Position numbers and translations under genes: made by a program | Shown: piece by piece, positions 7,880-35,006 of the stretch | Layout: every line of letters starts with the position of its first letter | Numbering within the stretch: the stretch's first letter is position 1 | The notes under the pieces: model-generated | Told to the model about the DNA's origin: nothing | What the model saw: only the letters and a program-made list of their open reading frames with translations | The model's database searches: none | DNA from: Desulfovibrio sp. | GTDB taxonomy: Bacteria > Desulfobacterota > Desulfovibrionia > Desulfovibrionales > Desulfovibrionaceae | Direction of reading: 5' to 3' | Assembly (NCBI RefSeq): GCF_035644575.1 | Contig: NZ_DASQOG010000210.1 | Coordinates: 10,363 to 74,362 of the forward strand | Length of the DNA: 64,000 nucleotides

Positions 7880-8479
7880 TTCGATCCCGTATCTGCGTAT
7901 TCTATGAGATATTGACCATATCCCGTTTTGATCATGTGTTTGGCCAAGGCACGCAGATCATCAGCACTGATATATCGCACTTGTGCCCCTGGCGGTTTTC
8001 AAGGGCCAACACAAAGAAGCGGCGCCTATCAATGAGCCGTGCGTCCCTGTATCAACTAAGCAATACCACACACCATCAGCTCTACATGCAGAATCGCCGG
8101 GTTGATGTAAGCGTTGTTTACTTCGGTGATTTCCAGTTCGCCTCTGGCGAAGGGCTCATCGCCTTGGCAATTTTCTGTAGATCTCCGTCATAAAAATAAA
8201 GGCCGGTGATCTCAGAATTAGACTTTGGGCTGGCTGGTTTTCCTTCTCCCACTACCCTAAATTGCTCATCAAATTCAACAATCGGTCTCATCCAGGGCAT
8301 GAACATGGCACCCCAATACTGTTTCCCACTGTTGCGCTGCATTGCCTCATATGCCAAGATTGGCAACACATGACTCAAAAACGCGTTTCGCCCAGCACAA
8401 AACAGACATTACAACCAGCAATTTGCTTTTCTACTAGCAAAAAACCCTGCGCCAGCCCTTCTGACTGGGGTTGCACAAT
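7880..8479 (-). pseudogene. rfbA: Glucose-1-phosphate thymidylyltransferase remnant, 5'-truncated at the IS end
   Basis: Fragments IVQPQSEGLAQGFLL, VEFDEQF..KPASPKSNS.ITGLYFYDGD, YISADDLRALA..GYGQYL. The first fragment abuts the IS left end at 8480. Confidence 0.85.
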
Positions 8480-8888
8480 TGACCCTCCCCCCGAAAAGTA
8501 AGCCAGCAAAAAAAATTAGTGTTTTTGACATCGGAGCACAAGAATGAAGAGTAGCAGATTCACCGAAGAACAGATTATTGGGATCTTGCGGCAAACCGAG
8601 GCTGGCGTTCGCGTTGTCGATCTATGTCGTCAGAATGGCATTTCAGATGCGACCTTTTACAAATGGAGCCGCGAGTTCGGTAGGATGAACATCTCTGACG
8701 CCACGCGGTTGCACCAGTTGGAGGAAAGAAACGCCCGCCTGAAAAGGCTTGTAGAAGAAAGCCTTTCTCTGCACACCCGCAAGCGCGTGAAGCGTCCAAG
8801 CCATGCCCATATTGTCCAGACTGGCCCTGCTGGCCGGGATGCAACCCATTGGGAACAAATAACTTACAAGTGGTATGGGGCAAGGTCA
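8480..8888 (+). mobile_element. IS3-family internally deleted miniature copy (409 bp, both ends retained)
   Basis: Left end TGACCCTCCCCCCGAAAAGT at 8480. orfA (MKSSRFTEEQIIGIL) is fused to a mid-orfB fragment. Right end ...GGGGCAAGGTCA at 8888. Confidence 0.85.
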
Positions 8889-9601
8889 GCCGCCCCCCGC
8901 TTCAGTTGACTTTTTCTCAAGTGCGGCCAAACGGCGGTTTACTGATTCAAGGCTGTGACGCAACCAGATCGACCGTATCCGGATGGGGAAACAAATATGC
9001 CTTGCTTGCGGAGCTCGTTACTGGCCCGTACTTGCCCATATGCAGGAAAATCAAGAGCAAAGGCAGTAACAGCTAGCTCCGTAGACTCTTCAACACGATT
9101 CTTCCACCACGCGCAGCCTGATACCGATAAAAAGTACCGCGTGAAAACCCTATAATCTTGTAGGCGTCCGAAATATTGCCAAATTCCGCAGCGAGATTGA
9201 GAAGCCCGGTCTTGTGCTTGATGACGTTTTGATTGAAACTTTCTACGGGAATTCTCCGTGGGCTTGTGCCCGGTTTGATGGTGCGTTTACATTTCCATCA
9301 AAACGGGGATTCCCCTTTCCTTCAGGGACCTGTCAGATCAAGTATAAACTAGCTCAAATGAGGCAGAGCAACAACTACGCTTGCCAGCTTTTAGGATGGC
9401 ACTTTGCAAAACCATCTGCCTTAAGAATGTCTTGAGAAAATCGCGTCCACAGCTTATATTTGAAATTATGTCGCCGCATCTTAACGCCTCTATGTAAGAG
9501 GAACACAACGATCCCTGCATTCTTGCGGGGCGTTGAATGCCCCTCATCAAGGCTGGCAGGCCGATACCAACCGCCAACTCTTGTGGAAGGATCACCTTCG
9601 C

Positions 9602-10357
9602 ATGAACAATCAATTTGAAGAATTTCTTCAGCATGGCTACATTTTAAATAATTTTTATCATTTTTCCAACAAAATCAAAGCGTGGCAATACTATCTTCCT
9701 TTTACAAAAGCGGCTAATTACATTGATCCAAACACACGAGCCCTTGATTGGGGATGTGGCAACGGTCACTTCTCATCTTTTCTTCTGCATAATAAGCAAA
9801 TGACTACTGCCTTTGGCTTTGGCGAAACATCTGCAATTCCCTTGCTCACAGACAACAAACTTTTCAACTTTGTTGCAGCCAATACCCATGAGCCTACAAA
9901 GCTACCTTTTGCAGACCAAACTTTTGATATTGTTTTCAGCATGGGGGTATTGGAACATGTTCATGAATCTGGTGGCGATCAGCTCTCGTCACTCAAAGAG
10001 ATACATCGCATACTTAAGCCGCATGGTTACTTCCTTTGCTTCCATTTTCCCTACAGTGGTAGTCTTGTAGAAATCATTCACAATGCAATCATGCCTTTCA
10101 AGCGCAAGGCCTATGTTCACACCAGGCGGTTCTCTCAGGAAGATGTTTTACGTCTTGCAAGTAATTCTTGCTTAGAAGTAAAAGAATGGGGGACATATAA
10201 TATATTGCCGAGAAATTTTACAGAGATCCTGCCTGTGAGCGTAACAAATAATCATTTTTTTGTTTCTGTCTTTAATGCAGTAGATACATTAATTTCGCAG
10301 CTTTTCCCATTTTGGTGCACACAAAGCTATTTCATAGCCCAAAAAATCAGTTCATAG
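9602..10357 (+). CDS. Class I SAM-dependent methyltransferase
   Basis: ALDWGCGNG, LPFADQTFDIVFSMGVLEHV and ILKPHG motifs. Start placed at ATG 9602. Confidence 0.85.
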   Translation: MNNQFEEFLQHGYILNNFYHFSNKIKAWQYYLPFTKAANYIDPNTRALDWGCGNGHFSSFLLHNKQMTTAFGFGETSAIPLLTDNKLFNFVAANTHEPTKLPFADQTFDIVFSMGVLEHVHESGGDQLSSLKEIHRILKPHGYFLCFHFPYSGSLVEIIHNAIMPFKRKAYVHTRRFSQEDVLRLASNSCLEVKEWGTYNILPRNFTEILPVSVTNNHFFVSVFNAVDTLISQLFPFWCTQSYFIAQKISS

Positions 10358-10481
10358 CAAACTTTATGGCTTAATCGCAGAATTAAATTGGGCATATGTA
10401 ATGCATAACACGTGCATAGACATACTGATCAATAATTGGGTTCACTTCTTCGGACCGGCCAACGTCAAAACTAAGATAGAC

Positions 10482-11655
10482 TGACCTTACCCCACTGCGT
10501 ATGCTACTTGTAAGTCACTGTTTTCCAATGGGTTACAGGTTATATTCTTTTCACGGAACTCTTCCGGAGTTAGCCAACCCAAGGAACTGTGCGGTCGCCG
10601 TTGGTGTATCCTGCCGCCAGGCTTCGACTGTTCTGCGGGCATCGTGCAGGGACAGAAACACGTTCTGATTTAAGCACTCATCCCGGAATTTTCCGTTAAA
10701 GCTTTCAATGTGCCCATTATCTGTGGGCTTCCCCGGACGAGTGAACTCTATCTGTACTCCATGCTCAAAAGCCCATGCGTCCAAGGCCTTACCGCTAAAT
10801 TCTGGGCCGTTATCAACCATGGAACGTTACGGCAACTGACTTTGAAGGCGTAGTCTTTCAAGAACGCGTACATCTCGAACTCCAGGCAACGACATATCCA
10901 CCTCGAGCGCGGGGCTTGAACGATCCCACAGATCAGCAATTGTCAAAATCCGGATGCGTCGCCCCCCATAAGGTCATCGCTTACAAAATCCATCGCCTGT
11001 TCATCTGGGCCATCAGGGTCAGCCTACGCAATACGGACAAAGCTGGGACGCTTCACGCGTTATGGGTACGCAACGAAAGTTTCTCTTTCTGGTAAATCCT
11101 TTCTGTCCGCTTGTGGTTCTGCACCAGCCCTTCCCGGCACCATAACTCATGCAGGCGCGGAGAACCGAAACTTCGTCGATCTTCTGCCCGTAAAAGAAGA
11201 TCACGGCCTTCAGATGGTGGCCGTCTGGCTGAACAGCGATTAAACTGATCACTCGGCAAGCCCGCCGCGCTGAGTAGCCAGACGCAGCCTGAAAGTGTTG
11301 CACGGCTTCCCTGTTGATTGCGGGCTTCAAAAGTTTTTGAGATCACGTCCTTCAGGACGACGATATCAAGCGCTTGTCCGCTTACAAGTCTTTTCAGCCG
11401 GGCGTTCTCTTCCTCCAACTGGCGCAACCGCATGGTGCCAGAGATGTTCACCCTATCGAACTTGTGGTTCCATTTGTAAAAGGTCGCATCCGAAATGCCA
11501 TTCTGACGGCATAGATCGACAACGCGAACGCCAGCCTCGGTTTGCCGCAATATCCCAATAACCTGTTCTTCGGTGAATCTACTTCGTTTCATCCTTGTGC
11601 TCCTATGTCAGGAACACTAATTTTTTTGCTGGCTTACTTTTCGGGGTGAGGGTCA
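10482..11655 (-). mobile_element. IS3-family element, near full length (1174 bp), frameshifted transposase
   Basis: Left end TGACCCTCACCCCGAAAAGT at 11655 and right end at 10482. orfA MKRSRFTEEQ; orfB DDE fragments VDNGPEF and NGHIESFNGKFRDECLN, broken across frames. Confidence 0.9.
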
Positions 11656-11656
11656 T

Positions 11657-14600
11657 TTACCCTACAGAGTTAAACAATAACGCAAGCCGTGCAGCGTTTG
11701 TTGGGTGTTGTGAATTGCGAGCAGCAAAACACCAAAATCCGGTTTGATGATGCGTCAGGGAATTGCGAACGCTTTCCATCGGAATAAATCCGAACTCTGT
11801 GATTTCTCTGTCCCCTGAGGATATGTCGGCGATTTCCATAAAAGACCGGGCATCCTGCTCCAGTCGGCAGACAATAAGCAATACCCGATTTGCCGCCGAC
11901 CATTCGATACCAAAACTCGCCGCAAGTGGCGTGACTAGAGACAAATCCAACTGAACCCCAAATTCCTCAAAAATTCCCCTCAAAAGACAGGTCTGCACGC
12001 CCCGGCCGCCATCAAGGTCTTCCTTCCGCATCTGCTCTTCAAAAGATATGCTCCATGCACCAGGATAGTACGCACTACCCAACGAGCGGCGAGCCTGTAG
12101 AAGCTGATTATCTTTTGTAACAAGCAAGGCGTGGACACAACCTATTGATGGCAAGGGAGATTCACTCTCAAACGATTCATAAAGTGACATTATCGCTTCG
12201 AGATGGGCAGCAAAATCAGGGGATTCCTTCCAGTCGTGACTTGGCGGACGCATGATTGGCGCTATGCCATGCTCCCTGCATATTCCATCAAAAAAGGCTT
12301 GCCGCTCATGCAGTGCTAAGTGGAGGCGGCGCGGCGTGGCCCAGGTAGAGCCACTGCACAGGATGGTGTCAACCTGACCTGCCACAAATGACAGCTTTTG
12401 TTCAAGTTCCGCTCCAACATCACGAGTCCGTTCGGCAGCTGTTAACCATTCGGGCAAGGAAGCAGCGGGCTGATCAAGAATCAGCTCCGGCAAAACCTTA
12501 TACCGCCGTAACTCCACATACTCGGAGGTAACTATCGAGCGGTCGACACCGCTCCCTTCAACAATCTTGCCAAGTTCCACAAGGCGCTGCTGCCCTGCAT
12601 TGCCAATACGGGTTGCTAGCGCTCGTCTTAAAGCCAATTGAAAACACTTTGCCCGTTGACTATCTGTAGAAACAGCATTCATCTGCCGCTCAAGCGCTGC
12701 GATCAGAGCCGTTTCACTAACGTCGTCCGTCTCAAAAGTAAGGGCATACAGGAGCGCGGCACGGGCACGACTGTTGTCCAGTATTCCCAAAATTTCATAT
12801 GCTTTTTGATGAATACGCCCATGTTGATGCCAAAGTGATCTGGCCACCAGCATCGTGACAAGCGGCAGGGACTGAAGCTGCCGCTGCATACCAACAATCG
12901 CAAGATAGCGCTCGACAATGGTCCAATCCGAGGCTCGTCCAAGAGAAAACCTGTCACAAAGAGCCAGCCCTTCTTCCAGTTCCTCAACAGTAAACGCTCC
13001 ATCCGTTGAGGGAGCAATACGCTGCTGCATATCAATTCCCAAAAGACGCTCGACCTCACCGATGGCATGACGCACTGTACGTAACAATACATGAGACGGT
13101 GGATGCAGCTCTTCAACCGGTTTCAACAGTTTTTGCAAGGCAACATATGCTCGTTGCTCAAAATCCCTGTCCTCAAGAGCTGCTTCAACAATGGCAGAGG
13201 ACAGATATTGCGCGATTCCAGGATCATCTTTTACAAGCTGCGCGTCATCTGCAAAGAATTCAAGAGCATTCTCAACTTCCTGCGGACGGTTGATTTTAGG
13301 AAGTGCCTCAATCAACCTGGCGCGCAAACTCACAGAGGAGATATAGCGCCGCAATGCACTAAGTATACAACCATCCTCGTCATCCATAGAAAACGATGCA
13401 GCACCACCAAACATGGCAGCGACAGAACTTAAAGCCAGCTGTGTGAGCTTGGGCGGGTGCAGACTGCTCAATTTCTCGCCATTGCTGGCGGGCAACCTGT
13501 TCCCCAGATACTCTCCATTGAGCACATTACGGATTTGACCAAGAAATACCTTCAATCGTGCCGTGATAACATATCCAGCGTTCCAGCTTTCCGAATGGCG
13601 CGTCATCTTATTATCTACCACAAATAGAAATTGTTCAAAATAACGATCTATGGTTGATACAGCATTTCTGTCATGCGCCATTTGCATCACAGTTTCAAAC
13701 AGCACCCTGCCAAAACCTTTAACAAGCAACATAAGAGTTGAATTTAACACATCTACATTGCTACACATTTCACTTGTCACTGCAATATTATGACTATCAA
13801 TAATATCATGACGTAGCCTGATCAAACCATCCTCTTCAACAACATAATTGGCATTATCAATAAGGACATTCAACAAATCAGAGTGCCCGTCTATTTTTTC
13901 TCTGGGCACATAAAAACATCCGCGCTCTATCTGGCACCTAGACAGATCTTTCATTATTCTTTCATTTGCTTCACCCTTCAGTCTGCGTTCAACATTTGTC
14001 AAACCTTCATTCGGTTCCAGGCAGTATTTACGCATTCTGTCGAGCAAAGCCGTTTCGGTATCAGGAAGGGAGGAGGTTTTGCCCTGTTCTTGCGCAGCAA
14101 GATACAGGCATATGTCTAGGAATACCGGGTTACGCAGAAAAGGCCGAGATACCAGATCACTCCCTTTAATATCAAGGACATCTGCCACAATTTTGCTTTT
14201 AAGATCCGTGAGTTCTATAATTCTGGCATCAGCCGGTGTTTCACTCGTGTCGGTGGGGGCAAATGCAGAACGAGCTGCCGACCAGGCACCAGGACGGGAC
14301 GTAAGGACAAGTTTGCAGGTGCCAAGAAGCCGCCGTAGTTTTTGCGCAGTTTCCTTGGGGTCGTCGGCATGTTCCAAACTGTCCGTGACAAAACAGATGA
14401 TATCCTTGAACCAATGCAGGCCCTCCTCTGCCAATGATATAACCTTGTCTTTTGATACCCAGTTCAACCCCAGACGCCTTTTGAGCGCCGAATCGATATC
14501 AAGAATATCCTCATCCGTAAGTAAAATTGGGAAAAAACACTTTGAATCTGGCAGATCAAGTGCTTCAACAAGAGCTCGCGCCACCGCGGTCGTTTTCCCT

Positions 14601-15331
14601 GTTCCGCCCGGCCCCACAAAGGCAACTGATCTCAATTCCGGTTTCGAAACAAGATCGCTGACCGCCTTGCTTATTTCGTCCCTGTCAAACCGCTGTTTAG
14701 GAACGAGCTGGCGCCCAACAATACGCTTAGCCCAAGCAAGGGTGCGCTCGCGCTCTTTTACGAGGCGTCTGATAAAATAGGCGCGAACGCTCTTCACGAT
14801 GGAGGCACAACAGCTATCAAGGACAGTTTCAATATATTCCCTGTCCTTGTCGTAGCTTGTGATCGATTTGAATATTTCCGGCTGATGAAGTTGGGTGGCG
14901 ATGGTTTCAGGATCGCGCCCACCTGAATGACCAGTATTCCGTATAACAAGACGACGCTCTAGCTCCTTCCACCCCTCCTCGCCAAAACGCAGCAGGACTA
15001 TCGGCACGTCGGTAATGCCTCTCTGGGGATAGAGGGCATCAAATATTTCCTCTACCACAATATCCGGATCACGGGGCTGACTGGCGGATGCTGTGGCGAT
15101 GACAACAACTGTTGGCCCAAGATTGGGTGCCACATCGCTGTCAACCGCCTGATAGAGTTGCTCCTTCCACATTTCTCGCCAGGGGTAACCAGGCCGGTGG
15201 CAATCTTCATCCAGAAACACCTTGAGATTGAAGGAAGTTTCCAGTCGAGTTTTTACGGCCTGTGCAAGGCCCGTATCAATACGCCTGTAGCATATCAGCA
15301 CATGACACTTTTCTTGTTCGTCAAATGGCAT
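11657..15331 (-). CDS. TIR domain - STAND/NACHT-like P-loop NTPase - helical repeats - NUDIX-like domain protein
   Basis: N-terminal VLICYRRID...KVFLD...VVVIAT...IVVEEIFDAL (TIR with candidate catalytic Glu). Walker A GPGGTGKT; Walker B ICFVTDSLE. C-terminal ALLVTKDNQLL..RRS....YPGAWSISFEEQ...RGIFEEFG (divergent Nudix box). RBS GAGGGG. Confidence 0.8.
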   Translation of the reverse strand: MPFDEQEKCHVLICYRRIDTGLAQAVKTRLETSFNLKVFLDEDCHRPGYPWREMWKEQLYQAVDSDVAPNLGPTVVVIATASASQPRDPDIVVEEIFDALYPQRGITDVPIVLLRFGEEGWKELERRLVIRNTGHSGGRDPETIATQLHQPEIFKSITSYDKDREYIETVLDSCCASIVKSVRAYFIRRLVKERERTLAWAKRIVGRQLVPKQRFDRDEISKAVSDLVSKPELRSVAFVGPGGTGKTTAVARALVEALDLPDSKCFFPILLTDEDILDIDSALKRRLGLNWVSKDKVISLAEEGLHWFKDIICFVTDSLEHADDPKETAQKLRRLLGTCKLVLTSRPGAWSAARSAFAPTDTSETPADARIIELTDLKSKIVADVLDIKGSDLVSRPFLRNPVFLDICLYLAAQEQGKTSSLPDTETALLDRMRKYCLEPNEGLTNVERRLKGEANERIMKDLSRCQIERGCFYVPREKIDGHSDLLNVLIDNANYVVEEDGLIRLRHDIIDSHNIAVTSEMCSNVDVLNSTLMLLVKGFGRVLFETVMQMAHDRNAVSTIDRYFEQFLFVVDNKMTRHSESWNAGYVITARLKVFLGQIRNVLNGEYLGNRLPASNGEKLSSLHPPKLTQLALSSVAAMFGGAASFSMDDEDGCILSALRRYISSVSLRARLIEALPKINRPQEVENALEFFADDAQLVKDDPGIAQYLSSAIVEAALEDRDFEQRAYVALQKLLKPVEELHPPSHVLLRTVRHAIGEVERLLGIDMQQRIAPSTDGAFTVEELEEGLALCDRFSLGRASDWTIVERYLAIVGMQRQLQSLPLVTMLVARSLWHQHGRIHQKAYEILGILDNSRARAALLYALTFETDDVSETALIAALERQMNAVSTDSQRAKCFQLALRRALATRIGNAGQQRLVELGKIVEGSGVDRSIVTSEYVELRRYKVLPELILDQPAASLPEWLTAAERTRDVGAELEQKLSFVAGQVDTILCSGSTWATPRRLHLALHERQAFFDGICREHGIAPIMRPPSHDWKESPDFAAHLEAIMSLYESFESESPLPSIGCVHALLVTKDNQLLQARRSLGSAYYPGAWSISFEEQMRKEDLDGGRGVQTCLLRGIFEEFGVQLDLSLVTPLAASFGIEWSAANRVLLIVCRLEQDARSFMEIADISSGDREITEFGFIPMESVRNSLTHHQTGFWCFAARNSQHPTNAARLALLFNSVG

Positions 15332-15356
15332 GGAATCGGCCCCTCTGTGACATCTA

Positions 15357-18065
15357 CTATTGCGCTTTTTCGATGTTGTAATGATAAATTGGCTTATTAT
15401 TGGGCGGACTTTCCGTGACCAGACAAACGGGGATACCCAGGGATTGCGCTTTCATCACGGTGTCGCCGGTACCGCCTAGCTGATCGCACCCCACGCCATC
15501 CCACAAGGCAACAAGTATAGTTGCCTGATCAAGCAGCATGCGGGCCTGCGCCTGATGGCCAGTTTCATCTTCTGCGGGCTGGGCCAGTACGAGATTCCCA
15601 GCATGCTGCTGCAGATCTGTCTGGTCAAAAATTTCCGCACTGCTGTTGACCTTCGGATCCTCAGTGGCAAAATCTGTTCCTAGAGGTCCTGCGCCAAAAG
15701 GAAAAACCAGCTGAGGTTTAGGCAAACCAAGTCCGTTCCAGCAAGCAACCGCCATTCTGTCTGCACCGGGCGCATAACCGACTACCAAGCGACAGCAGTT
15801 ATTTTCGAACACTGCTCGAATAAACACAGCCTGTATTTCACGCTTTAGGTCAGTAATGCTGCCCAGACGAGTCAGGTCCCGATGCCCAGCAAAGGCGACG
15901 GCTGGCCCTTCACCTCTCTTCCAGCTCCAGGTTGTTGAGATTTCCACCAACATTTTACGGTCAAAATCGAACAAGGCCTTGACCATCCGCAACAAAGTCG
16001 GCTTGGGAGGTTCCCAAAAGACAATACGTAGCCGACAAAGATTCTTTGTTCTGTCAAAGATTTGCCGCAATTGAGTCTTGATTACTGAAGCGGTGGCATC
16101 CTTAATATTCAGAAACTTATTGCCAAATCCTACAATAACCTCGGTGGTGGACTCCGTTACGGGGAGGGACTCAATAATTGTCGGGCCATCGCCCTGCTCC
16201 CCGGCTGCAAGCCATATGTATGCGCACTTGTACGCACCTGCCGAGGGGACAGCGTCTGGGAGTTGCGGTTCTTTTCCACCAGCGATGAGAGCCCGCAAAA
16301 AAATGGAATCGTAGTTTTGAATGTGTTCGTCGAGATTATTCCACTCTGTAATACAGGGATGGATCCGTCTCTGATTGTCTCTGAGCGATGCATCATACCG
16401 ACCAGCCGAAAACCAACCGTCAAGTGCCCGGTCTGTCATCCAGCGGTCATGCTCGACAATGGCTGCCTGAATAACGCGCTGTTCCAAAGATTGTGCGTTA
16501 TTCATGAATGCCTCAGGGTCAACGACCGGCAGAAGTTTACTCTTACGCCGCCACTGTACCCCCAAATCCTCAAGTTTTTGCTCCGCGTGACGGATCAGCC
16601 GACGGTTGGAAACGCGATAAGTTTCGTCAAAGGTGTTCCACTCCCCTTCGTTAAAGGAGAATTTTGGGTCATCAGGGTGCATAATCTGGCCAGCAATACG
16701 GTATCTCTTATGCATAGTACGCGCAAACAAATCGGGATCGTCTTCAAACGCCGTGCCGTAGGCGACGATCCTTTCAAGTGAACCAAAGGACCGGATCATG
16801 CCGACAGGATCAAAACCGGGGTCTGCCTCATTACCCAGGTTGCCGTTCCAAATACGCACAAAAATAGGGGCTGCATCGACCCTTCGCAGTTGCATGGCTG
16901 TTTCTAACGCTAGTGCCGCCTTAACGTTGACGGTATCGTCGCTAGTGGTGATAACATAGGCAGTGACGGGTGTTTTTTGCACTTCGGCCATGCAGGGATC
17001 AGACGCATAATCAGCACATTTTATATCCATGGTATGAAAATAAACTTGCGGTGCGGAATTTTCGGGCAGAGCCCCTGTGTTGCCTGCATCCAACAACAAT
17101 GCAGGGGCAAGACGGATAAATCGACTGCGAATTTCATCGCCCTTGCAATCGCAGATGTCTATCACCGGGGGTTTAAGGCCAACACGCCATGCAGTCAGCA
17201 AAAATTCTACTGCGATGGCTTCCCCCTGAGCACCATAACCAAACAACACAAGATGGGCGTTTTCCTGTTTTGCATCCAGCGCCGCGCGATCAAAGCGTGC
17301 CGTCTGGCAAAGCTCCTCGGCAACCATCTGCGGCAATGCAAAGGCAGATATTTCTTTCCATGTCCCCGTGCATGAGGTGCTTTCGTCCGATATCTCACGC
17401 ACGATCTCAGGGTCGCGGAGCAAAACTCGGATATCAGGCCCCGCCCCAGTCTTGGCCATATGTGTTCTGACATGCGCCTGCACAGCACGGGCGGCATCCA
17501 GACTCTCCATATCATTAGAAAACGCAATAAACACGCGGTGGGCATGACTCAGGCCGATCTTCACCATCAATTCATCAGAAGTGCCATTACCTTCAATTAA
17601 AAGGATATGGTCTGTACGCGCCTGATTGGCCCGTTGTGCATCTACCGTGCGGTCAACCGCTGTGACAGCATGCGCATATCTACGCGCAACAGCCTGGCCG
17701 ACTGGCCCGTAGCCAAAAACAATTACGCGCTTTGAAGAGTAAAAAAACCTTTGCCAACAAAGATGAACGAACTGCCGCAAAGGATGGCTCAAGGACCACA
17801 GCACGGCAGAGGCTCCAAAGATAGGGGCGGCAAAACGGGTTACTTGAAGCAGCCAGTGAACCCGACATTTTGATTCAAGTTCAAAATTGAGAACAAACAT
17901 CTGAAGCGACCGGTATCCAGCATCAAACAACAGATCGGCCAAGCTCGACCATGTGTCGGGTAAGCTTTCCAACCTATTCTCGGACATAAGAAAGCCCACC
18001 ATGCCTGCAAACCAGATAGTGACAAAAAAGATGGTTATAGCTATCGCCCGTGATTTTCTGGTCAT
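15357..18065 (-). CDS. 2TM/pore channel-like - two RCK(TrkA-N) - RyR repeat pair - SLOG domain protein (about 902 aa from ATG 18065)
   Basis: Two hydrophobic helices flank YRSLQMFVL. Rossmann motifs VIVFGYGPVG and LVLFGYGAQG. RyR motifs ARTMHKRY and EHDRW..GW...NQRRIHPCITEW. SLOG motifs AFAGHR, GYAPGAD and LVALWDG..GGT. RBS GGGGA upstream of 18065. Confidence 0.8.
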   Translation of the reverse strand: MTRKSRAIAITIFFVTIWFAGMVGFLMSENRLESLPDTWSSLADLLFDAGYRSLQMFVLNFELESKCRVHWLLQVTRFAAPIFGASAVLWSLSHPLRQFVHLCWQRFFYSSKRVIVFGYGPVGQAVARRYAHAVTAVDRTVDAQRANQARTDHILLIEGNGTSDELMVKIGLSHAHRVFIAFSNDMESLDAARAVQAHVRTHMAKTGAGPDIRVLLRDPEIVREISDESTSCTGTWKEISAFALPQMVAEELCQTARFDRAALDAKQENAHLVLFGYGAQGEAIAVEFLLTAWRVGLKPPVIDICDCKGDEIRSRFIRLAPALLLDAGNTGALPENSAPQVYFHTMDIKCADYASDPCMAEVQKTPVTAYVITTSDDTVNVKAALALETAMQLRRVDAAPIFVRIWNGNLGNEADPGFDPVGMIRSFGSLERIVAYGTAFEDDPDLFARTMHKRYRIAGQIMHPDDPKFSFNEGEWNTFDETYRVSNRRLIRHAEQKLEDLGVQWRRKSKLLPVVDPEAFMNNAQSLEQRVIQAAIVEHDRWMTDRALDGWFSAGRYDASLRDNQRRIHPCITEWNNLDEHIQNYDSIFLRALIAGGKEPQLPDAVPSAGAYKCAYIWLAAGEQGDGPTIIESLPVTESTTEVIVGFGNKFLNIKDATASVIKTQLRQIFDRTKNLCRLRIVFWEPPKPTLLRMVKALFDFDRKMLVEISTTWSWKRGEGPAVAFAGHRDLTRLGSITDLKREIQAVFIRAVFENNCCRLVVGYAPGADRMAVACWNGLGLPKPQLVFPFGAGPLGTDFATEDPKVNSSAEIFDQTDLQQHAGNLVLAQPAEDETGHQAQARMLLDQATILVALWDGVGCDQLGGTGDTVMKAQSLGIPVCLVTESPPNNKPIYHYNIEKAQ

Positions 18066-18776
18066 CCAATCCCCCAATAGGCAGTATTGACAGCCTTTCT
18101 GGCTTATTGCACCGTTATAAACTTGAGTTGAGGCACAGATATCTCGTCTACGCGACATAACTCCATCCAGAGTCGCCAGACAGATGCCGCTATCCTCCCA
18201 AGATAAGCCATGTCGTTGCGCATTCGGCGTATTTGAGGCAACAGATTGCTTTTGGCAGGCAGCACCTGAGCTATCTCGCAAGCCTGCCAAGCAAATAAAA
18301 TCATTGAATTAAACCTGTTGAAAACCACCTACTCTACATTTTATATTGGCAACGATATAAAATACAATAATTACTTATCATAGAGTGAAGGCGTCCCCCA
18401 TGTTCGTGCTGCCACAGGGGTGCGCGACTCTGGTTGCCAGAATATTTCCGCAGACCGTGTAGGAAGCGTCAGAACGCAAAATGGCGTTGACCAACCTCGC
18501 TTTCTTACCAAGCCCAACGCTAGTGGCAACTTTTTAGGGTTCTTACCTCCCACCACTAACGGAGCTTGCCCCAAAGCTAGTATCTGATAGAGACATGAAA
18601 GGCATGAGCGGGGTCAAAAATATTCGCTCAAGAACAAATCATTTTCAAGTTTCACGAAATTGAAACTCTCGTGGGCCAACCGATAGCATTTCCCAAACCT
18701 TCAGTAAAATTACTATTATCGAACAAGCGTATATCAATGTTATAAAGGACATGAACAGAGAACATGATTGCTAAGC

Positions 18777-19648
18777 TGACCCTCACCCCGAAACAGGGAA
18801 GCCGTGCATCACATTCAGGCTGCGCTTGGTTACTCAGAGCGGCGGGATTGCCGAGTGATTCAGTTTAATCGCTGTTCAGCCAGACGGGCACCATCTGAAG
18901 ACCGAGATCTTCTTTTACGGACTTGAGTGCTGGAACTGGCAAATGACCGGCGGCCTTTCGGTTCTCCGCGATTGCATGAATTATTACGCCGAAAATATCT
19001 GGTGCAGAACCACAAGCCGACAGAAAGGATTTACCAGAAAGAAAAACTTTCGTTGCGTACCCATAAACGCGTGAAGAGTCCCAGCTTTGCCCGTATTGCT
19101 TAGGCTGGCCCTGATGGCCCAGATGAACAGGCGATGGATTTTGTAAGCGATGACCTTATGGGTGGGCGACGCATCCGAATTTTGACAATTGCCGATCTAT
19201 AGGATGGCTCAAGTCTGACTCACGAAGTGGATATGTCGTTGCCTGGAGTTCAAGTTGTACGCGCTCTTGAAAGACTACGCCTTCAAAGTCAGTTGCCGTA
19301 GCGTACCAAGGTTGATAACGGCCCAGAATTGAGCGGTAACGCCATGAATACATGGGCTTTTAAGCACGGCATGCAGATAAAGCGCACTCGTCCGGGGAAG
19401 CCCACAGATAATGGGCACATTGAAAGCTTTAATGGAAAATTCCGGGATGAGTACTTAAAACAGAACGTATTTCTGTCCCTGCACAATGCCCGCAGAACAG
19501 TCGAAGCTTGGCGGCAGGATTATAGCCAGCGGCGGCCGCACTGCTCCTTGGGCTGGCTGACACCGGAAGGATTTCGCGAAAAGAATATAACCTGCAACCC
19601 ATTGGAAACCAGTGACTTACAAGTAGCATACGCAGTGGGGTAAGGTCA
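18777..19648 (+). mobile_element. IS3-family element lacking orfA (872 bp, both ends retained)
   Basis: Left end TGACCCTCACCCCGAAA is joined directly to the orfB start region (cagggaagccgtgc). DDE fragment NGHIESFNGKFRDE. Right end GGGGTAAGGTCA at 19648. Confidence 0.9.
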
Positions 19649-32493: not shown

Positions 32494-32949
32494 TTATTGA
32501 AATCTTTTGTACTTGCACTGTGTTATTATGCCATCTTTATTAACTATGAAATTCATCACGGTATAATAATCAACATTAATATACATTGGGGAAAGATTGA
32601 ACGCAGGGGCATCAACGCCAATAGACTCATCTTGATTGTAGTAGTAGTAATATGCATATACCCGTTCACCGTCAGGAAGTTCTTTATACACCTCATCTGA
32701 CTTAAATTTTCCTCCATTATAGTCGCCACTTACACAATAATTTATATACTTCTGCACAACAAATGCGTACATGCCCTGGCGAGCATGCATGTTTTTGGGC
32801 ATCCAGAGCGTGAAGCCTTTTCCATTGTCATAGTTTTCTGGATACTCCCCAAACAGACCACTTTGGCTTCTGTCTGGCAGAGGGCCACAGGCGCAGAGCA
32901 GGGCAAACAGACAAAACAGGGCAATGTTTTTGTACATGGAGTTTCTCAT
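32494..32949 (-). CDS. Lipoprotein, paralog 1 of 4 (151 aa)
   Basis: Lipobox LLCA-C21; ELPDG.RVYAY...NFIVNKDGII (BamE/BLIP-like pattern). Confidence 0.8.
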   Translation of the reverse strand: MRNSMYKNIALFCLFALLCACGPLPDRSQSGLFGEYPENYDNGKGFTLWMPKNMHARQGMYAFVVQKYINYCVSGDYNGGKFKSDEVYKELPDGERVYAYYYYYNQDESIGVDAPAFNLSPMYINVDYYTVMNFIVNKDGIITQCKYKRFQ

Positions 32950-33276
32950 TTATCAGATAACTGCCTGAAAGTAGCAAACCGTTCAGAGCAATGCTTTGGG
33001 GCCATTATTACCAACATGCCTCTGCCCCGCTCACGTTTTGCACAACTGCAAAGAGGCCTGCCCGCGCGCACAAAAGCTGCTCCGCAGCCTTTGGCGTCTA
33101 GGACTTTGCGAATCGTCGTTACTGCCTGTCATTACGCATCGCGCCCACCCCATGCGCACATTTGGTCCGTTTCAGACTGCCCAGCAAAAAAGATTGCGGG
33201 AATGCATGCTAGCTTAAATTTCACCGATGCTATTCGCTCCAACAGATGATTATTCGCAAATAACTTTCTGCATTTT

Positions 33277-33732
33277 TTAATAAAAATGCAAGTATTTGCA
33301 GCGTGTTATTATGCCGTCCTTATTAACTATAAAATTCATAACAACATAATAATCAACATTAATATGCATTGGTGTAAGATTGAACGCTGGCGCATCAACG
33401 CCAATAGATTCATCTTGATTGTAGTAATAGTAGTATGCATATACACGGCCACCGTCAGGGAGTTCTTTGTAAACATCGTCAGAATTATATTTCCCTCCAT
33501 CAAAGTCGCCATTAGCGCAGTGGTCCATATGTTTTTGCACGACAAAAGCATACATTCCTTGCTCTGCATGCATGTTTTTTGGCATCCAAAGCGTAAAACC
33601 CTTTCCGTTATCATAATTTTCTGGATACCGGCCAAAAAGGCCGCTCTGGTTTCTCGATGGCGATGGGCCACAGGCACAGAGCAGTGTGAACAAGCAGAAG
33701 AGTGCAATGTTTTTGTACATGGAAGTTCTCAT
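33277..33732 (-). CDS. Lipoprotein, paralog 2 of 4 (151 aa)
   Basis: Same family as paralog 1, colinear with no indels. Confidence 0.8.
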   Translation of the reverse strand: MRTSMYKNIALFCLFTLLCACGPSPSRNQSGLFGRYPENYDNGKGFTLWMPKNMHAEQGMYAFVVQKHMDHCANGDFDGGKYNSDDVYKELPDGGRVYAYYYYYNQDESIGVDAPAFNLTPMHINVDYYVVMNFIVNKDGIITRCKYLHFY

Positions 33733-33767
33733 TCAGGTGATTATTCGCAAATAACTTGCTGCATCTT

Positions 33768-34223
33768 TTAATGAAAATGCAAGTATTTGCAGCGTGTTAT
33801 TATGCCATCCTTATTAACTATAAAGTTCATTACAGTATAATAATCGACTTTAAATCTAATTGCTTTTGTATTGAATGTTGGGTTATCAATTCCAGCACTC
33901 TCCTCTTGATTGTAGTAGTAGTAATATGCATATACACGGCCACCGTCAGGAAGCTCTTTATAAACTTCATCTGACTTAAACTTTCCCCCATTATAGTCTC
34001 CATTGGCACAATAGTTCATATATTTCCGCACAACAAATTCATACATGCCTTGGCGGGCGTGCATATTCTTTGGCATCCAAAGCCAGGAGCCTTTTCCATC
34101 AGCATAATCTTCCGGATAGCGCCCAAACAAACCGCTTTGGCTTCTGTCTGGCAGAGGGCCACAGGCGCAGAGCAGGGCAAACAGGCAAAACAGGGCAATA
34201 TTTTTGTACATGGAATTTCTCAT
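33768..34223 (-). CDS. Lipoprotein, paralog 3 of 4 (151 aa)
   Basis: Same family; divergent segment EESAGIDNPTFNTKAIRFK. Confidence 0.8.
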   Translation of the reverse strand: MRNSMYKNIALFCLFALLCACGPLPDRSQSGLFGRYPEDYADGKGSWLWMPKNMHARQGMYEFVVRKYMNYCANGDYNGGKFKSDEVYKELPDGGRVYAYYYYYNQEESAGIDNPTFNTKAIRFKVDYYTVMNFIVNKDGIITRCKYLHFH

Positions 34224-34550
34224 TTATCAGATAACTGCCTGAAAGTGGCAAACCGTTCAGAGCAATGCTTTGGGGCCATTATTACCAACATGCCTCTGCC
34301 CCGCTCACGTTTTGCACAACTGCAAAGAGGCCTGCCCGTGCGCACAAAAGTTTGCTCCGCCGCCGTTGACATCTGGAGCTTTGCAGATCGTCGTTGCTGC
34401 CTGTCATTACGCATCGCGCCCACCCCATGCGCACACATCCGCTGAGCCTCAGTCAGTTCTGCAAAAAATTGAAAAAAGCACTCCAGCTAAAATTGCACTG
34501 CTGCAATCCGCTTCGGCAGGCAATTGTTGACAATTTCCTGGCCAACTTTT

Positions 34551-35006
34551 TTAATTAAATCTCATGTATTTACAATTTGTAATTATGCCGTCTTTATTAA
34601 CTATAAAGTTCATTACAGTATAATATTTAACATTAATATACATTGGGGAAAGATTGAACGCAGGGGCATCAACGCCAATAGACTCATCTTGATTGTAATA
34701 GTAGTAATAAGCATACACACGGGAACCGTCTGGAAGTTCTTTATAAACCTCTTTTGATTCAAACTTTCCGCCATTATAATCCCCGTTTACGCAGTAGTTG
34801 ATATATTTCTGCACAACAAATGCGTACATACCTTGGCGGGCATGCATATTATCTGGCATCCAGAGAGTGAAGCCGTCCGTATCAACAAAATTTTCAGGAT
34901 ACCGGCCAAACAGGCCGCTCTGGTTTCTTGATGGCGAAGGGCCACAGGCACAGAGCAGTGTGAACAGGCAGAGGAGTGCAATGTTTTTGTACATGGAAAT
35001 TCTCAC
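34551..35006 (-). CDS. Lipoprotein, paralog 4 of 4 (151 aa)
   Basis: Same family as paralogs 1-3, colinear. Confidence 0.8.
   Translation of the reverse strand: MRISMYKNIALLCLFTLLCACGPSPSRNQSGLFGRYPENFVDTDGFTLWMPDNMHARQGMYAFVVQKYINYCVNGDYNGGKFESKEVYKELPDGSRVYAYYYYYNQDESIGVDAPAFNLSPMYINVKYYTVMNFIVNKDGIITNCKYMRFN

What the first reader, a model, noticed from the sequence alone, without database searches (positions are those of the whole stretch)
11657..18065. Candidate new nucleotide-signalling defence system: TIR-STAND-NUDIX sensor paired with a SLOG/RyR-gated channel
Seen in sequence: two co-oriented genes 25 bp apart, each with an RBS, bracketed by IS3 copies inside a surface-glycan locus. 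Gene 1 is 2TM/pore-RCK-RCK-RyR-RyR-SLOG; gene 2 is TIR-STAND-helical-NUDIX. Established knowledge: in type I Thoeris, a TIR (ThsB) makes a cyclic ADPR isomer that binds the SLOG domain of ThsA; type II Thoeris uses a membrane effector; Avs STAND NTPases oligomerise N-terminal effectors after sensing phage proteins. Inference: the STAND senses infection, the TIR makes an ADPR-type messenger, the SLOG binds it and opens the channel (depolarisation/abortive infection), and the NUDIX resets the signal. I do not recognise this pairing as a named system.
Basis: partly seen in the sequence, partly recalled or inferred. Interest (0 to 1): 0.93.

Follow-up and report, generated by a model that had tools for sequence, protein, structure and literature searches.

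The report
TIR sensor paired with RyR/SLOG channel
Two adjacent genes on a mobile cassette most likely form a Thoeris-type anti-phage system: a giant TIR-STAND-Nudix sensor signals to a potassium-channel-like membrane protein that carries a ryanodine-receptor-type domain with the residues phage proteins use to bind cyclic ADP-ribose signals.

Summary
Two intact minus-strand genes lie 25 bp apart between degraded IS3 copies in a glycan locus, and they travel together as a cassette. The same 6.5 kb recurs at 89% identity elsewhere with unrelated flanks, and both genes are under purifying selection.

Gene 1 has a 2TM pore-like module, tandem RCK domains (GsuK/TrkA/MthK fold), a RyR repeat, an unknown α/β domain, and a DprA/YspA-type SLOG. 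Gene 2 is TIR–NACHT–HEAT–divergent Nudix.

Among 17 informative loci of SLOG-fused gene 1 relatives, 8 have an adjacent TIR protein of varied architecture. Four more have an adjacent STAND/repeat giant. Gene 2 relatives do not follow gene 1, but one sits beside ThsB-TIR, TIR and SLOG genes.

A 2026 preprint shows that phage RyR-domain proteins bind or cleave 2'/3'cADPR through an H/W/H/D tetrad. That tetrad is invariant in gene 1.

The concept is not new. Thoeris types III, IX and X already pair TIRs with SLOG or ion-channel effectors. This architecture appears undescribed, so I rate it a new variant of a known kind. Function is inferred, not shown.

The parts
15357..18065 (-). Gene 1 (902 aa): the putative effector. 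Order of modules: 2TM pore-like module, tandem RCK, RyR, alpha/beta domain, SLOG.
   Evidence: ORF. 24 homologues. AF2 model with pLDDT 83 and pTM 0.82. dN/dS 0.245 against L002.
17742..18065 (-). N-terminal membrane module, residues 1-108: TM1 (7-27), amphipathic pore-helix-like helix (39-58) with a conserved YRSLQxFxLNF[ED] loop, and inner helix (71-92) with invariant R77.
   Evidence: Hydropathy. Helices in the model. Foldseek alignments run through full-length GsuK and MthK. No TVGYG filter.
17331..17738 (-). RCK1 / TrkA_N Rossmann domain, residues ~110-245.
   Evidence: Pfam TrkA_N E 8.9e-12. TrkA in PDB by profile, 1.2e-8. Foldseek TrkA gating ring 4e-8.
16776..17273 (-). Second RCK-like Rossmann domain, residues ~265-430.
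   Evidence: Two matched stretches to TrkA. Foldseek alignments of ~400-500 columns to the tandem-RCK proteins TrkA, GsuK and CASTOR.
16266..16730 (-). RyR region, residues 446-600. The canonical RyR (R12-type) repeat is at ~526-590, with invariant H539, W542, H569 and D586. Residues 446-505 form a divergent repeat-like hairpin.
   Evidence: Profile against PDB RyR repeats, 2.9e-10. Single-sequence phmmer 1e-5, aligning H/W/H/D. Conservation counts. Phage RyR-domain hits in BFVD. Ligand residues from PMC13232231.
15927..16250 (-). Unassigned alpha/beta domain, residues ~606-713.
   Evidence: Confident in both AF2 models. No sequence or fold match.
15408..15914 (-). C-terminal SLOG-like (DprA/YspA-type) Rossmannoid domain, residues ~718-886. 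Motifs: G727-H-R, G763-x-A-x-G-A-D769, G864-G-T.
   Evidence: Absent from the short forms. Pfam DNA_processg_A in 6/17, YAcAr in 4/17, plus cpYpsA and YpsA. The homologous domain is fused to SLATT/DUF4231 in L012 and L016. BFVD Foldseek hits DprA-like at E 1.3e-4 and TMt 0.72, and YspA SLOG proteins. PDB Foldseek was negative.
11657..15331 (-). Gene 2 (1224 aa): TIR-NACHT-HEAT-Nudix STAND protein, the putative sensor and signal synthase.
   Evidence: ORF. About 12 full-length relatives in the exhaustive HMMER search. dN/dS 0.148.
14927..15307 (-). TIR domain, residues ~9-135. The candidate catalytic Glu is E95 (codon 15047-15049), not E94.
   Evidence: Pfam TIR_2 E 4e-3 for the window protein, and 23/35 relatives with best 2e-14. 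hhalign against neighbour TIRs gives probability 88%, E 3e-6. E95 is invariant and E94 is not.
13652..14689 (-). STAND NTPase (NACHT-type), residues ~215-560. Walker A is G240-x-GG-x-GKT (K246); Walker B is D317-x-L-E320.
   Evidence: NACHT in 19/35 and nSTAND5 in 12/35 relatives. Invariant motifs.
12242..13651 (-). Helical HEAT-repeat region, residues ~561-1030.
   Evidence: HEAT_2 in 13/35 relatives, best 6e-14. Weak HEAT_2 hit at 834-880 in the window protein.
11660..12166 (-). Divergent Nudix domain, residues ~1056-1224. The box reads G1091-x6-E1098-E1099-(long insert)-R1118-G-I-F-E1122-E1123-F-G-V.
   Evidence: More than 60 small proteins share only this domain. 10/43 of them hit Pfam NUDIX, best 7e-8. 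Invariant residues.
10482..11658 (-). Degraded IS3-family copy abutting the gene 2 stop codon.
   Evidence: HTH_Tnp_1 OrfA. OrfB fragment. 87% inverted copy of 18792-19648.
18792..19648 (+). Degraded IS3-family copy (OrfB part) upstream of gene 1.
   Evidence: blastn self-comparison. rve-like ORF at 19329-19643.

Best explanation
The two genes form a Thoeris-like, TIR-based abortive-infection cassette carried between IS3 remnants.

Gene 2 is the sensor and signal synthase. It is a NACHT-type STAND NTPase. Its HEAT repeats, and possibly its C-terminal Nudix domain, would detect infection. Oligomerisation would then activate the N-terminal TIR (catalytic Glu E95) to convert NAD+ into an ADP-ribose-derived messenger.

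Gene 1 is the effector. It is a GsuK/MthK-like, presumably tetrameric membrane protein. Its tandem-RCK gating ring is extended by a RyR (R12-type) domain and a SLOG domain. Messenger binding to RyR and/or SLOG would open the pore. The resulting loss of membrane potential would stop phage replication.

Shown here: gene order and integrity, domain identities, travel of the pair as a unit, purifying selection, and the recurrent adjacency of SLOG-fused gene 1 relatives to TIR proteins.

Inferred: anti-phage function, the nature of the messenger, which domain receives it, ion conduction, and the role of Nudix.
For: The pair is a unit. It is co-oriented with a 25 bp gap. It recurs at 89% nucleotide identity with unrelated flanks. 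dN/dS is 0.25 and 0.15.

Gene 1 fold. AF2 gives pLDDT 83. Foldseek finds the TrkA ring at 4e-8, and also full-length GsuK and MthK, CASTOR and Slo.

RyR. The family profile matches R12 repeats at 2.9e-10. H539, W542, H569 and D586 are invariant or 23/24. They align with the R12 residues at +0/+3/+25/+42, which equal RyDEP H75/W78/H100/D117, the residues that bind and cleave 2'/3'cADPR (PMC13232231).

SLOG. Pfam hits fall only in SLOG-clan families. BFVD hits are DprA-like and YspA SLOG proteins. The same domain is fused to SLATT elsewhere.

Gene 2 domains. Family-level TIR_2, NACHT and HEAT hits and NUDIX hits, with the catalytic Glu and Walker motifs invariant.

Context of 18 SLOG-fused gene 1 loci:
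- Adjacent TIR proteins in 8: window/L002, L005, L006, L009, L011, L025, L026, L028.
- Adjacent nSTAND1/TPR/WD40 giants in 4: L013, L024, L027, L032.
- One locus (L029) is too short to judge.
- Several loci lie beside prok_STING proteins or further TIR-STAND genes, which is defence-island context.

Gene 2 context. A relative sits directly after ThsB_TIR, TIR_2 and an LD_cluster3 SLOG gene.

Precedent. Thoeris types III, IX and X use SLOG or ion-channel effectors.
Against: - No experiment exists. PADLOC has no model for either protein.
- The gene 2 family does not co-occur with the gene 1 family except in the 90% relative. P0028 stands alone.
- Five SLOG-fused homologues have no TIR or STAND neighbour.
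- Three partners begin with a DUF4062-like domain that is not TIR by hhalign.
- TIRs on STAND proteins are usually regarded as NAD+-depleting effectors rather than signal makers; Yirmiya et al. excluded them for that reason.
- The pore loop lacks a canonical selectivity filter, and the inner helix carries an invariant Arg.
- SLOG was not recovered by Foldseek against PDB with the C-terminal model, nor by profile comparison with single DprA or LD_cluster3 sequences.
- A distant ~600-aa TM-RCK-RCK-RyR branch sits in housekeeping-like synteny.
Confidence: 0.6

Rival explanations
1. Gene 2 is a self-contained Avs/bNACHT-like defence protein, and its TIR simply burns NAD+ once the STAND oligomerises. 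Under this reading gene 1 is not gated by a dedicated messenger. It would either read the resulting metabolic change (NAD+/NADH/ADPR/ATP) through its RCK, RyR or SLOG domains as a second-line executioner, or it would be an independent neighbour on the same island.
For: - N-terminal TIR, NTPase and repeats is the Avs/NLR layout.
- A relative (P0028) occurs alone.
- Some family members swap TIR for a trypsin-like protease, as effector domains do.
- RCK/TrkA_N domains bind NAD(H), ATP or ADP; GsuK structures with NAD and ADP are among the best fold matches.
- The literature treats Avs TIRs as NADases.
Against: - The two genes move as one cassette with a 25 bp gap.
- SLOG-fused gene 1 relatives are adjacent to TIR proteins of very different architectures, including a 143-aa TIR with no STAND. 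That pattern fits a diffusible TIR product better than a shared metabolic side effect.
- The RyR tetrad that recognises cADPR isomers is invariant.
Confidence: 0.2
2. Gene 1 does not execute cell death but regulates or terminates signalling. Its RyR domain keeps the H/D glycosidase dyad, and with the SLOG domain it would degrade or sequester the TIR product as a host-side buffer or timer. The Nudix of gene 2 would do the same for the pyrophosphate bond. The membrane module would then serve for localisation rather than conduction.
For: - The RyDEP catalytic dyad equivalents H539 and D586 are invariant.
- The Nudix catalytic glutamates are invariant.
- The pore loop is non-canonical.
Against: - The full channel-plus-gating-ring fold is conserved with high model confidence.
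- In short-form loci the family is paired with classic killing effectors, patatin and SLOG-SLATT.
- Most tested RyDEP homologues bind ligand without cleaving it despite conserved residues.
Confidence: 0.08
3. The pair has no role in defence. Gene 1 is a nucleotide-regulated cation channel used in ordinary physiology, and the TIR-STAND neighbour is coincidental cargo of the IS3-flanked island.
For: - A distant ~600-aa TM-RCK-RCK-RyR branch sits in conserved synteny with SelO-like and secreted-protein genes.
- Five SLOG-fused homologues lack TIR neighbours.
- No hit to any PADLOC model.
Against: - 12 of 17 informative loci have a TIR or STAND giant adjacent, often with overlapping stop and start codons.
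- TIR signalling systems occur in only ~8% of genomes (abstract), so this adjacency is far above chance.
- The cassette is mobile and has atypical GC.
Confidence: 0.07

Closest known systems
Thoeris defence systems, especially type III (several TIRs plus the SLOG effector ThsD), type IX (TIR-and-SLOG effector) and type X (TIR plus the ion-channel effector ThsK); Yirmiya et al., bioRxiv 10.64898/2025.12.03.692087
   Same: A TIR gene sits next to an effector gene that carries a nucleotide-sensing domain (SLOG) and/or forms a membrane channel. The partner TIRs vary while the effector is conserved. The loci lie in defence-island or mobile contexts.
   Different: - The TIR is the N-terminal domain of a 1224-aa NACHT-HEAT-Nudix STAND protein, a class that survey deliberately excluded, not a small ThsB.
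- The effector combines a tandem-RCK channel fold with RyR and SLOG domains. The words TrkA, RyR and Nudix do not occur in that paper or its tables.
- Homology to ThsK could not be tested because its sequence was not retrievable.
Type I Thoeris ThsA (SIR2-SLOG)
   Same: A SLOG-superfamily domain as the presumed receptor of a TIR-made cADPR isomer.
   Different: - There is no SIR2 domain, and the output is a membrane module.
- The SLOG here is closest to the DprA/YspA/YAcAr families.
- It matched no ThsA structure.
[quoted passage not shown]
   Same: The Pfam PF02026 repeat, with the same H/W/H/D ligand-binding and catalytic tetrad at the same spacing.
   Different: - Here the domain is host-encoded.
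- It is built into a channel-like protein next to a TIR gene, so it is a candidate receptor rather than an anti-defence sponge or glycosidase.
- Binding has not been tested.
Tandem-RCK prokaryotic K+ channels (GsuK, MthK) and TrkA/CASTOR gating rings
   Same: The 2TM-pore-plus-RCK fold and tandem Rossmann RCK domains. GsuK is regulated by NAD+/ADP.
   Different: - The pore loop is LNF[E/D] instead of TVGYG.
- The inner helix carries an invariant Arg.
- About 470 extra C-terminal residues hold the RyR, alpha/beta and SLOG domains.
Avs/AVAST and bacterial NLR-related (bNACHT) proteins
   Same: An N-terminal effector-type domain (TIR, or trypsin in some relatives), a NACHT-type NTPase and C-terminal repeats.
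   Different: - No hit to any PADLOC Avs or bNACHT model.
- There is a C-terminal Nudix domain.
- The gene is tightly coupled to a second gene.

Membership tests
Thoeris (TIR-signalling defence, generic definition) | A TIR-domain protein with the catalytic glutamate | tested here: met
   TIR_2 in 23/35 family members, best 2e-14. hhalign probability 88%. E95 is invariant in 12 full-length relatives.
Thoeris (TIR-signalling defence, generic definition) | An adjacent effector gene with a signal-sensing domain, recurring next to TIR genes | tested here: met
   8 of 17 informative loci of SLOG-fused gene 1 relatives have an adjacent TIR gene.
Thoeris (TIR-signalling defence, generic definition) | The TIR produces a phage-dependent ADPR-derived messenger that activates the effector, and the system protects against phage | not testable with these tools
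   Needs phage challenge and LC-MS.
Thoeris (TIR-signalling defence, generic definition) | The TIR protein is a small stand-alone ThsB-type protein | tested here: not met
   The TIR is fused to NACHT-HEAT-Nudix in a 1224-aa protein. Some orthologous loci do have a 143-aa TIR.
Type I Thoeris ThsA | SIR2 NADase domain fused to SLOG | tested here: not met
   No SIR2 hit in Pfam, NCBIfam or PADLOC.
Type X Thoeris (ThsB + ThsK ion channel) | [quoted passage not shown] | tested here: met
   Met at the level of architecture only.
Type X Thoeris (ThsB + ThsK ion channel) | Sequence or fold homology of the effector to ThsK | not tested
   ThsK sequences are given only as IMG ids. Plasmid relatives of the type X TIR all carried macro-domain (type II) effectors.
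SLOG superfamily (SMF/DprA-LOG) | Rossmannoid domain with SLOG-family sequence profile and fold | tested here: met
   - Scan of the C-terminal domain alone: DNA_processg_A in 6/17 (best 8.7e-4), YAcAr in 4/17, cpYpsA and YpsA. All are SLOG-clan families and all fall below the gathering thresholds.
- BFVD Foldseek: DprA-like at E 1.3e-4 and TMt 0.72, plus at least 8 YspA SLOG proteins at probability 1.0.
- The same domain is fused to SLATT.
- Caveats: PDB Foldseek and single-sequence hhalign were negative, and the query region aligned in BFVD is not reported.
RyR domain (PF02026) / RyDEP family | RyR repeat with the H/W/H/D ligand-binding tetrad | tested here: met
   Profile against PDB 2.9e-10. 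Alignment of H539/W542/H569/D586 to R12. Invariance. The Pfam hit on the single sequence is below threshold.
RyR domain (PF02026) / RyDEP family | Binds or cleaves 2'cADPR/3'cADPR | not testable with these tools
   Biochemistry is needed.
RCK-gated K+ channels (GsuK/MthK type) | 2TM pore module followed by RCK domain(s) | tested here: met
   Foldseek matches full-length GsuK, MthK and Slo; TrkA_N hit.
RCK-gated K+ channels (GsuK/MthK type) | K+ selectivity filter T-V-G-Y-G | tested here: not met
   The conserved loop is LNF[E/D].
Avs / bNACHT anti-phage STAND proteins | Match to a known Avs or bNACHT family model | tested here: not met
   PADLOC gives only a mad8 hit at E 0.05. The general tripartite STAND layout is present.
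Nudix hydrolases | Nudix box GX5EX7REUXEEXGU | tested here: inconclusive
   - 10/43 relatives of the domain hit PF00293, best 7e-8.
- The window protein itself does not hit.
- The box has RG for RE and a 12-residue insertion, but E1098, E1099, R1118, E1122 and E1123 are invariant.

The most novel reading that the evidence does not exclude
The RyR (R12-type) domain of gene 1 is the receptor through which a TIR-made cyclic-ADPR-family messenger gates an ion channel. This would be a bacterial counterpart, and possible evolutionary antecedent, of the long-debated cADPR-to-ryanodine-receptor link in animals. The fused Nudix of the TIR-STAND protein may convert the TIR product into a second-step messenger, such as a pRib-AMP-like molecule, rather than merely resetting the signal.
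Probability: 0.25. Interest if true: 0.92.

Novelty: new variant of a known kind. Interest (0 to 1): 0.75.

Why it matters
If confirmed, three things would follow.

1. Thoeris-type signalling would extend to STAND/NLR-like TIR proteins. Current surveys set these aside as plain NADases.

2. A new effector class would be added: a tandem-RCK channel carrying RyR and SLOG domains.

3. There would be a host protein in which a RyR R12-type domain, with the residues that bind 2'/3'cADPR, is wired to a channel. Whether cADPR acts directly on ryanodine receptors is an old open question. A small bacterial system with the same domain attached to a pore would make the principle directly testable by binding assays, flux assays and cryo-EM.

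The TIR-Nudix fusion also offers a simple model for how TIR products are processed or terminated. That question is also open in plant immunity.

Tried and rejected
- PADLOC and NCBIfam scans of both proteins gave nothing useful.
- A PDB sequence-profile search with the gene 2 family gave no TIR or Nudix hit. The same search with the SLOG-like domain gave only chance-level hits.
- Foldseek against PDB with the separately folded C-terminal 303 residues found no hit at E ≤ 1e-3. The weak SAVED-CHAT and CD38 matches have poor TM-scores and were not used.
- hhalign of the SLOG-like alignment against single sequences of an LD_cluster3 protein and E. coli Smf/DprA was not significant. The Smf alignment did fall on the expected motifs.
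- The third homologous-protein search, using a 12-sequence profile, returned only the three proteins already known.
- The idea that the DUF4062-like N-termini of three partner proteins are cryptic TIRs was rejected by hhalign, probability 2%.
- I tried to recover type X ThsK channels through plasmid relatives of the type X TIR. All six loci inspected carried macro-domain (type II) effectors or none.
- tblastn of the RyR repeat against phage genomes did not recover RyDEP itself.
- The promoter and terminator scan was no better than shuffled sequence.
Full report
**1. What is in the sequence**

Two long ORFs lie on the minus strand. Gene 1 is at 15357..18065 (902 aa from the ATG). Its ORF could extend to a TTG at 18290. 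Gene 2 is at 11657..15331 (1224 aa). The gene 1 stop and the gene 2 start are 25 bp apart, and each start is preceded by a purine-rich stretch.

The surrounding DNA is a sugar-modification locus. It holds a GT2 glycosyltransferase, an FdtA/DegT aminotransferase, a FemAB-like gene, a methyltransferase and an APS kinase. Its GC content is 33-45%. The cassette has ~50-52% GC, and most of the rest of the window (about 22-32 kb and 37-52 kb) has 57-64%.

The cassette is bracketed by degraded IS3 copies. 10482-11315 is an 87% inverted copy of 18792-19648, and 11383-11658 is a 90% copy of 8477-8753. The left copy ends one base from the gene 2 stop codon.

The same two genes recur in another metagenome contig (L002). 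Identity is 89.5% over 6455 bases, but the flanks are unrelated. Between the two copies, dN/dS is 0.245 for gene 1 and 0.148 for gene 2. The pair is therefore a mobile, selected unit and not a chance juxtaposition.

**2. Gene 1**

On the single sequence only TrkA_N passes Pfam's threshold (E 8.9e-12). RyR is sub-threshold. There are 24 homologues, and their alignment shows two forms:
- Long forms of ~900-960 aa.
- Short forms of ~790 aa that lack the last ~190 residues.

The family profile matches ryanodine-receptor R12 repeats (2.9e-10) and TrkA (1.2e-8) among solved structures.

An AlphaFold2 model built on the alignment is confident, with pLDDT 83 and pTM 0.82. Its best PDB matches are:
- the TrkA gating ring (4e-8);
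- the full-length tandem-RCK channel GsuK;
- CASTOR/DMI1 gating rings;
- full-length MthK;
- Slo channels.

The N-terminus has one strongly hydrophobic helix, an amphipathic helix with a conserved YRSLQxFxLNF[E/D] loop, and a moderately hydrophobic helix with an invariant Arg. This is a channel-like topology, but it has no K+ selectivity filter. Conduction is therefore inferred and not shown.

**3. The RyR repeat**

A May 2026 preprint (PMC13232231) reports the following:
- Phage RyR-domain proteins (RyDEP, PF02026) bind or cleave the Thoeris messengers 2'cADPR and 3'cADPR.
- They do so through H75, W78, H100 and D117. H75 and D117 form the catalytic dyad.
- These residues are conserved in R12 domains.

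In gene 1, H539, W542 and D586 are invariant, and H569 is present in 23 of 24 homologues. A phmmer alignment to an R12 repeat (6uhi, E 1e-5) places them on the R12 residues at +0/+3/+25/+42, which is the RyDEP spacing. Family members without a 5-residue loop insertion have exactly that spacing.

Foldseek against viral models also returns at least seven phage RyR-domain proteins at probability 1.0.

Only one repeat is recognisable by sequence.

**4. The C-terminal domain**

I aligned the C-terminal domains of the long forms with the N-terminal domains of two neighbouring proteins (L012, 569 aa; L016, 610 aa). The shared motifs are GHR, GxAxGxD and GGT.

Scanning the 17 members individually gives only SLOG-clan families as recurrent Pfam hits. 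These are DNA_processg_A in 6 (best 8.7e-4), YAcAr in 4, cpYpsA and YpsA. All fall below the gathering thresholds. The two neighbour proteins fuse this domain to DUF4231/SLATT_3, the '2TM effector domain associating with SMODS and SLOG'.

The structural evidence is mixed:
- Foldseek of the full model against BFVD has a phage DprA-like protein as top hit (E 1.3e-4, TM 0.72 on the target, 23% identity). It also returns at least eight YspA/cpYpsA SLOG proteins at probability 1.0.
- Foldseek of the separately folded C-terminal 303 residues (pLDDT 82) against PDB found nothing at E ≤ 1e-3.
- hhalign against single Smf and LD_cluster3 sequences was not significant.

I accept SLOG superfamily membership with moderate confidence. 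Residues ~606-713 form a confident α/β domain with no match.

**5. Gene 2**

On the single sequence TIR_2 (4e-3) and STAND models (1.5e-3 and weaker) are sub-threshold, and Nudix is absent. The word-indexed search found only two relatives.

The exhaustive HMMER search found 476 hits at E ≤ 1e-3. They fall into three groups:
- ~12 full-length relatives;
- ~40 proteins sharing the NTPase and helical part with other N-termini;
- more than 60 small proteins sharing only residues ~1056-1190.

Pfam scans of these sets give TIR_2 in 23/35 (best 2e-14), NACHT in 19/35, nSTAND5 in 12/35, HEAT_2 in 13/35 and Trypsin_2 in 2/35. NUDIX appears in 10/43 of the C-terminal-domain relatives, best 7e-8.

hhalign of the N-terminus against TIR domains of neighbour proteins gives probability 88%, E 3e-6.

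Residues invariant in 12 full-length relatives:
- TIR: Y15, R16, F39, D41 and E95.
- NTPase: the Walker A (G240..K246) and Walker B (D317, E320) motifs.
- Nudix: E1098, E1099, R1118, G1119, E1122 and E1123.

The catalytic Glu candidate is E95, not E94, because E94 is Gln in P0028. The Nudix box is atypical, with RG in place of RE and a 12-residue insertion. Its acidic residues are kept.

**6. Do the genes co-occur?**

At the level of the two specific families they do not. A profile of gene 2 finds it only in the window, L002 and L001 among all fetched loci. Gene 2 relatives occur in these contexts:
- P0028 (37% identical) stands alone.
- P0030 lies next to a divergent TIR_2 gene and a patatin gene.
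- P0031 lies directly after ThsB_TIR, TIR_2 and LD_cluster3 SLOG genes (E 5e-62). This is a type-III-Thoeris-like array.
- P0032 follows an unknown 403-aa gene.

At the level of architecture the association is strong. Counting window and L002 as one lineage, there are 18 distinct loci of SLOG-fused gene 1 relatives.

| Neighbour of the gene 1 relative | Loci |
|---|---|
| Adjacent TIR protein (8 loci) | window/L002 (TIR-NACHT-HEAT-Nudix); L005, Rhizobium sp. SL86 (TIR-TPR, 4-bp overlap, plus two more TIR-nSTAND1 giants); L006/7 (143-aa TIR-like, 4-bp overlap); L009, Mesorhizobium (CAP12/PCTIR TIR, divergent); L011, Thioclava (TIR-WD40, convergent); L025 (TIR-NACHT-HEAT); L026 (TIR-nSTAND1-TPR); L028 (TIR, cut by the contig end) |
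| Adjacent STAND/repeat giant without a recognisable TIR (4 loci) | L013, L024 and L032 (DUF4062-like-nSTAND1-TPR/WD40); L027 (TPR, cut) |
| No such neighbour (5 loci) | L014, L015, L021, L022, L023 |
| Contig too short to judge (1 locus) | L029 |

The DUF4062-like N-termini are not TIR by hhalign. L011 and L013 also carry prok_STING proteins next door.

Short forms without SLOG are followed by a patatin gene and the SLOG-SLATT gene.

A distant ~600-aa TM-RCK-RCK-RyR branch is mostly in housekeeping-like synteny. The conflict association therefore belongs to the SLOG-bearing branch and some others, not to the whole superfamily.

**7. Mechanism**

The best reading is a Thoeris-like system. The STAND protein senses infection and its TIR makes an ADPR-derived messenger. 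The messenger binds the RyR and/or SLOG domain of the channel-like protein and opens it, causing abortive infection.

The steps shown and the steps inferred are listed under the best explanation. The main rival, which I put at about 0.2, is that the STAND-TIR is a plain NADase as in Avs. Under that reading the channel reads the metabolic collapse through its nucleotide-binding domains, or it is independent.

The Nudix domain could do any of three things:
- act as the STAND's ligand sensor, given its C-terminal position;
- process the TIR product into a second messenger.

Nothing here discriminates between these roles.

**8. Comparison with what is known**

Yirmiya et al. (bioRxiv 10.64898/2025.12.03.692087) list 29 putative Thoeris types. 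They include type III (several TIRs plus a SLOG effector), type IX (TIR-and-SLOG effector) and type X (TIR plus ion channel). Type X was verified in B. subtilis, and its messenger is unknown. Untested or negative candidates include 'SLOG Patatin' and 'SLOG and 4TM'.

That survey removed TIRs in Avs/STAND proteins. Its text and tables never mention TrkA, RyR or Nudix. The RyDEP preprint does not discuss host channel proteins. Earlier comparative-genomic papers that I could read do not mention RyR or TrkA in this context.

PADLOC has no model for either protein. I could not obtain ThsK sequences to test homology.

**9. Verdict**

This is a new variant of a known kind of system.

Noticed in passing
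window 32494-35006 (minus strand): Four tandem paralogous 151-aa ORFs. Each has a lipoprotein-type signal (LLCACG) and a 'YAYYYYYNQ[DE]ES' motif. None has a Pfam hit. They lie in a low-GC island.
   Followed up: partly
window 8477-11658 and 18792-19648; L002: Three degraded IS3 copies lie around the cassette. The cassette (about 11656-18738) occurs at 89% identity in another metagenome with unrelated flanks, so it moves as a unit.
   Followed up: yes
L004/L008/L012 (8001-13281), L016, L003: Short forms of the gene 1 family lack the SLOG domain. They sit in an operon with a patatin phospholipase and a 569-610-aa protein whose N-terminal domain is homologous to the gene 1 SLOG-like domain and is fused to DUF4231/SLATT. 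This looks like a split version of the system with extra killing effectors.
   Followed up: partly
[not shown]
   Followed up: no
L033-L099 (about 38 loci): A distant ~600-aa TM-RCK-RCK-RyR family (22-25% identity, no SLOG) is mostly in conserved synteny with a ~680-aa secreted protein and a ~480-aa SelO-like gene. This is probably a housekeeping branch. A few members (L034, L061, L068-70, L096, L020) do have TIR neighbours.
   Followed up: partly
gene 2 relatives P0029-P0176: Two STAND relatives carry a trypsin-like protease instead of TIR. More than 60 small proteins (200-450 aa) share only the divergent Nudix-like C-terminal domain, which defines an uncharacterised Nudix subfamily.
   Followed up: partly
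window 15927-16250 (gene 1 residues ~606-713): A confidently modelled alpha/beta domain between the RyR and SLOG domains has no sequence or fold match.
   Followed up: partly
L013, L024, L032 (N-termini of the partner STAND proteins): Three partner proteins start with a DUF4062-like domain ('R-x-F-x-S-S-P…E-R') instead of TIR. It shows no profile similarity to TIR, and its role next to the same effector is unexplained.
   Followed up: partly
window 1-64000: Base composition is strongly mosaic. Blocks of 33-46% GC (1-11 kb, 32-37 kb, and near 45, 52-53 and 62 kb) alternate with 57-64% GC core, which suggests several acquired islands. The window matches only metagenome runs from soil, biofilm, lake water and wastewater.
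   Followed up: no
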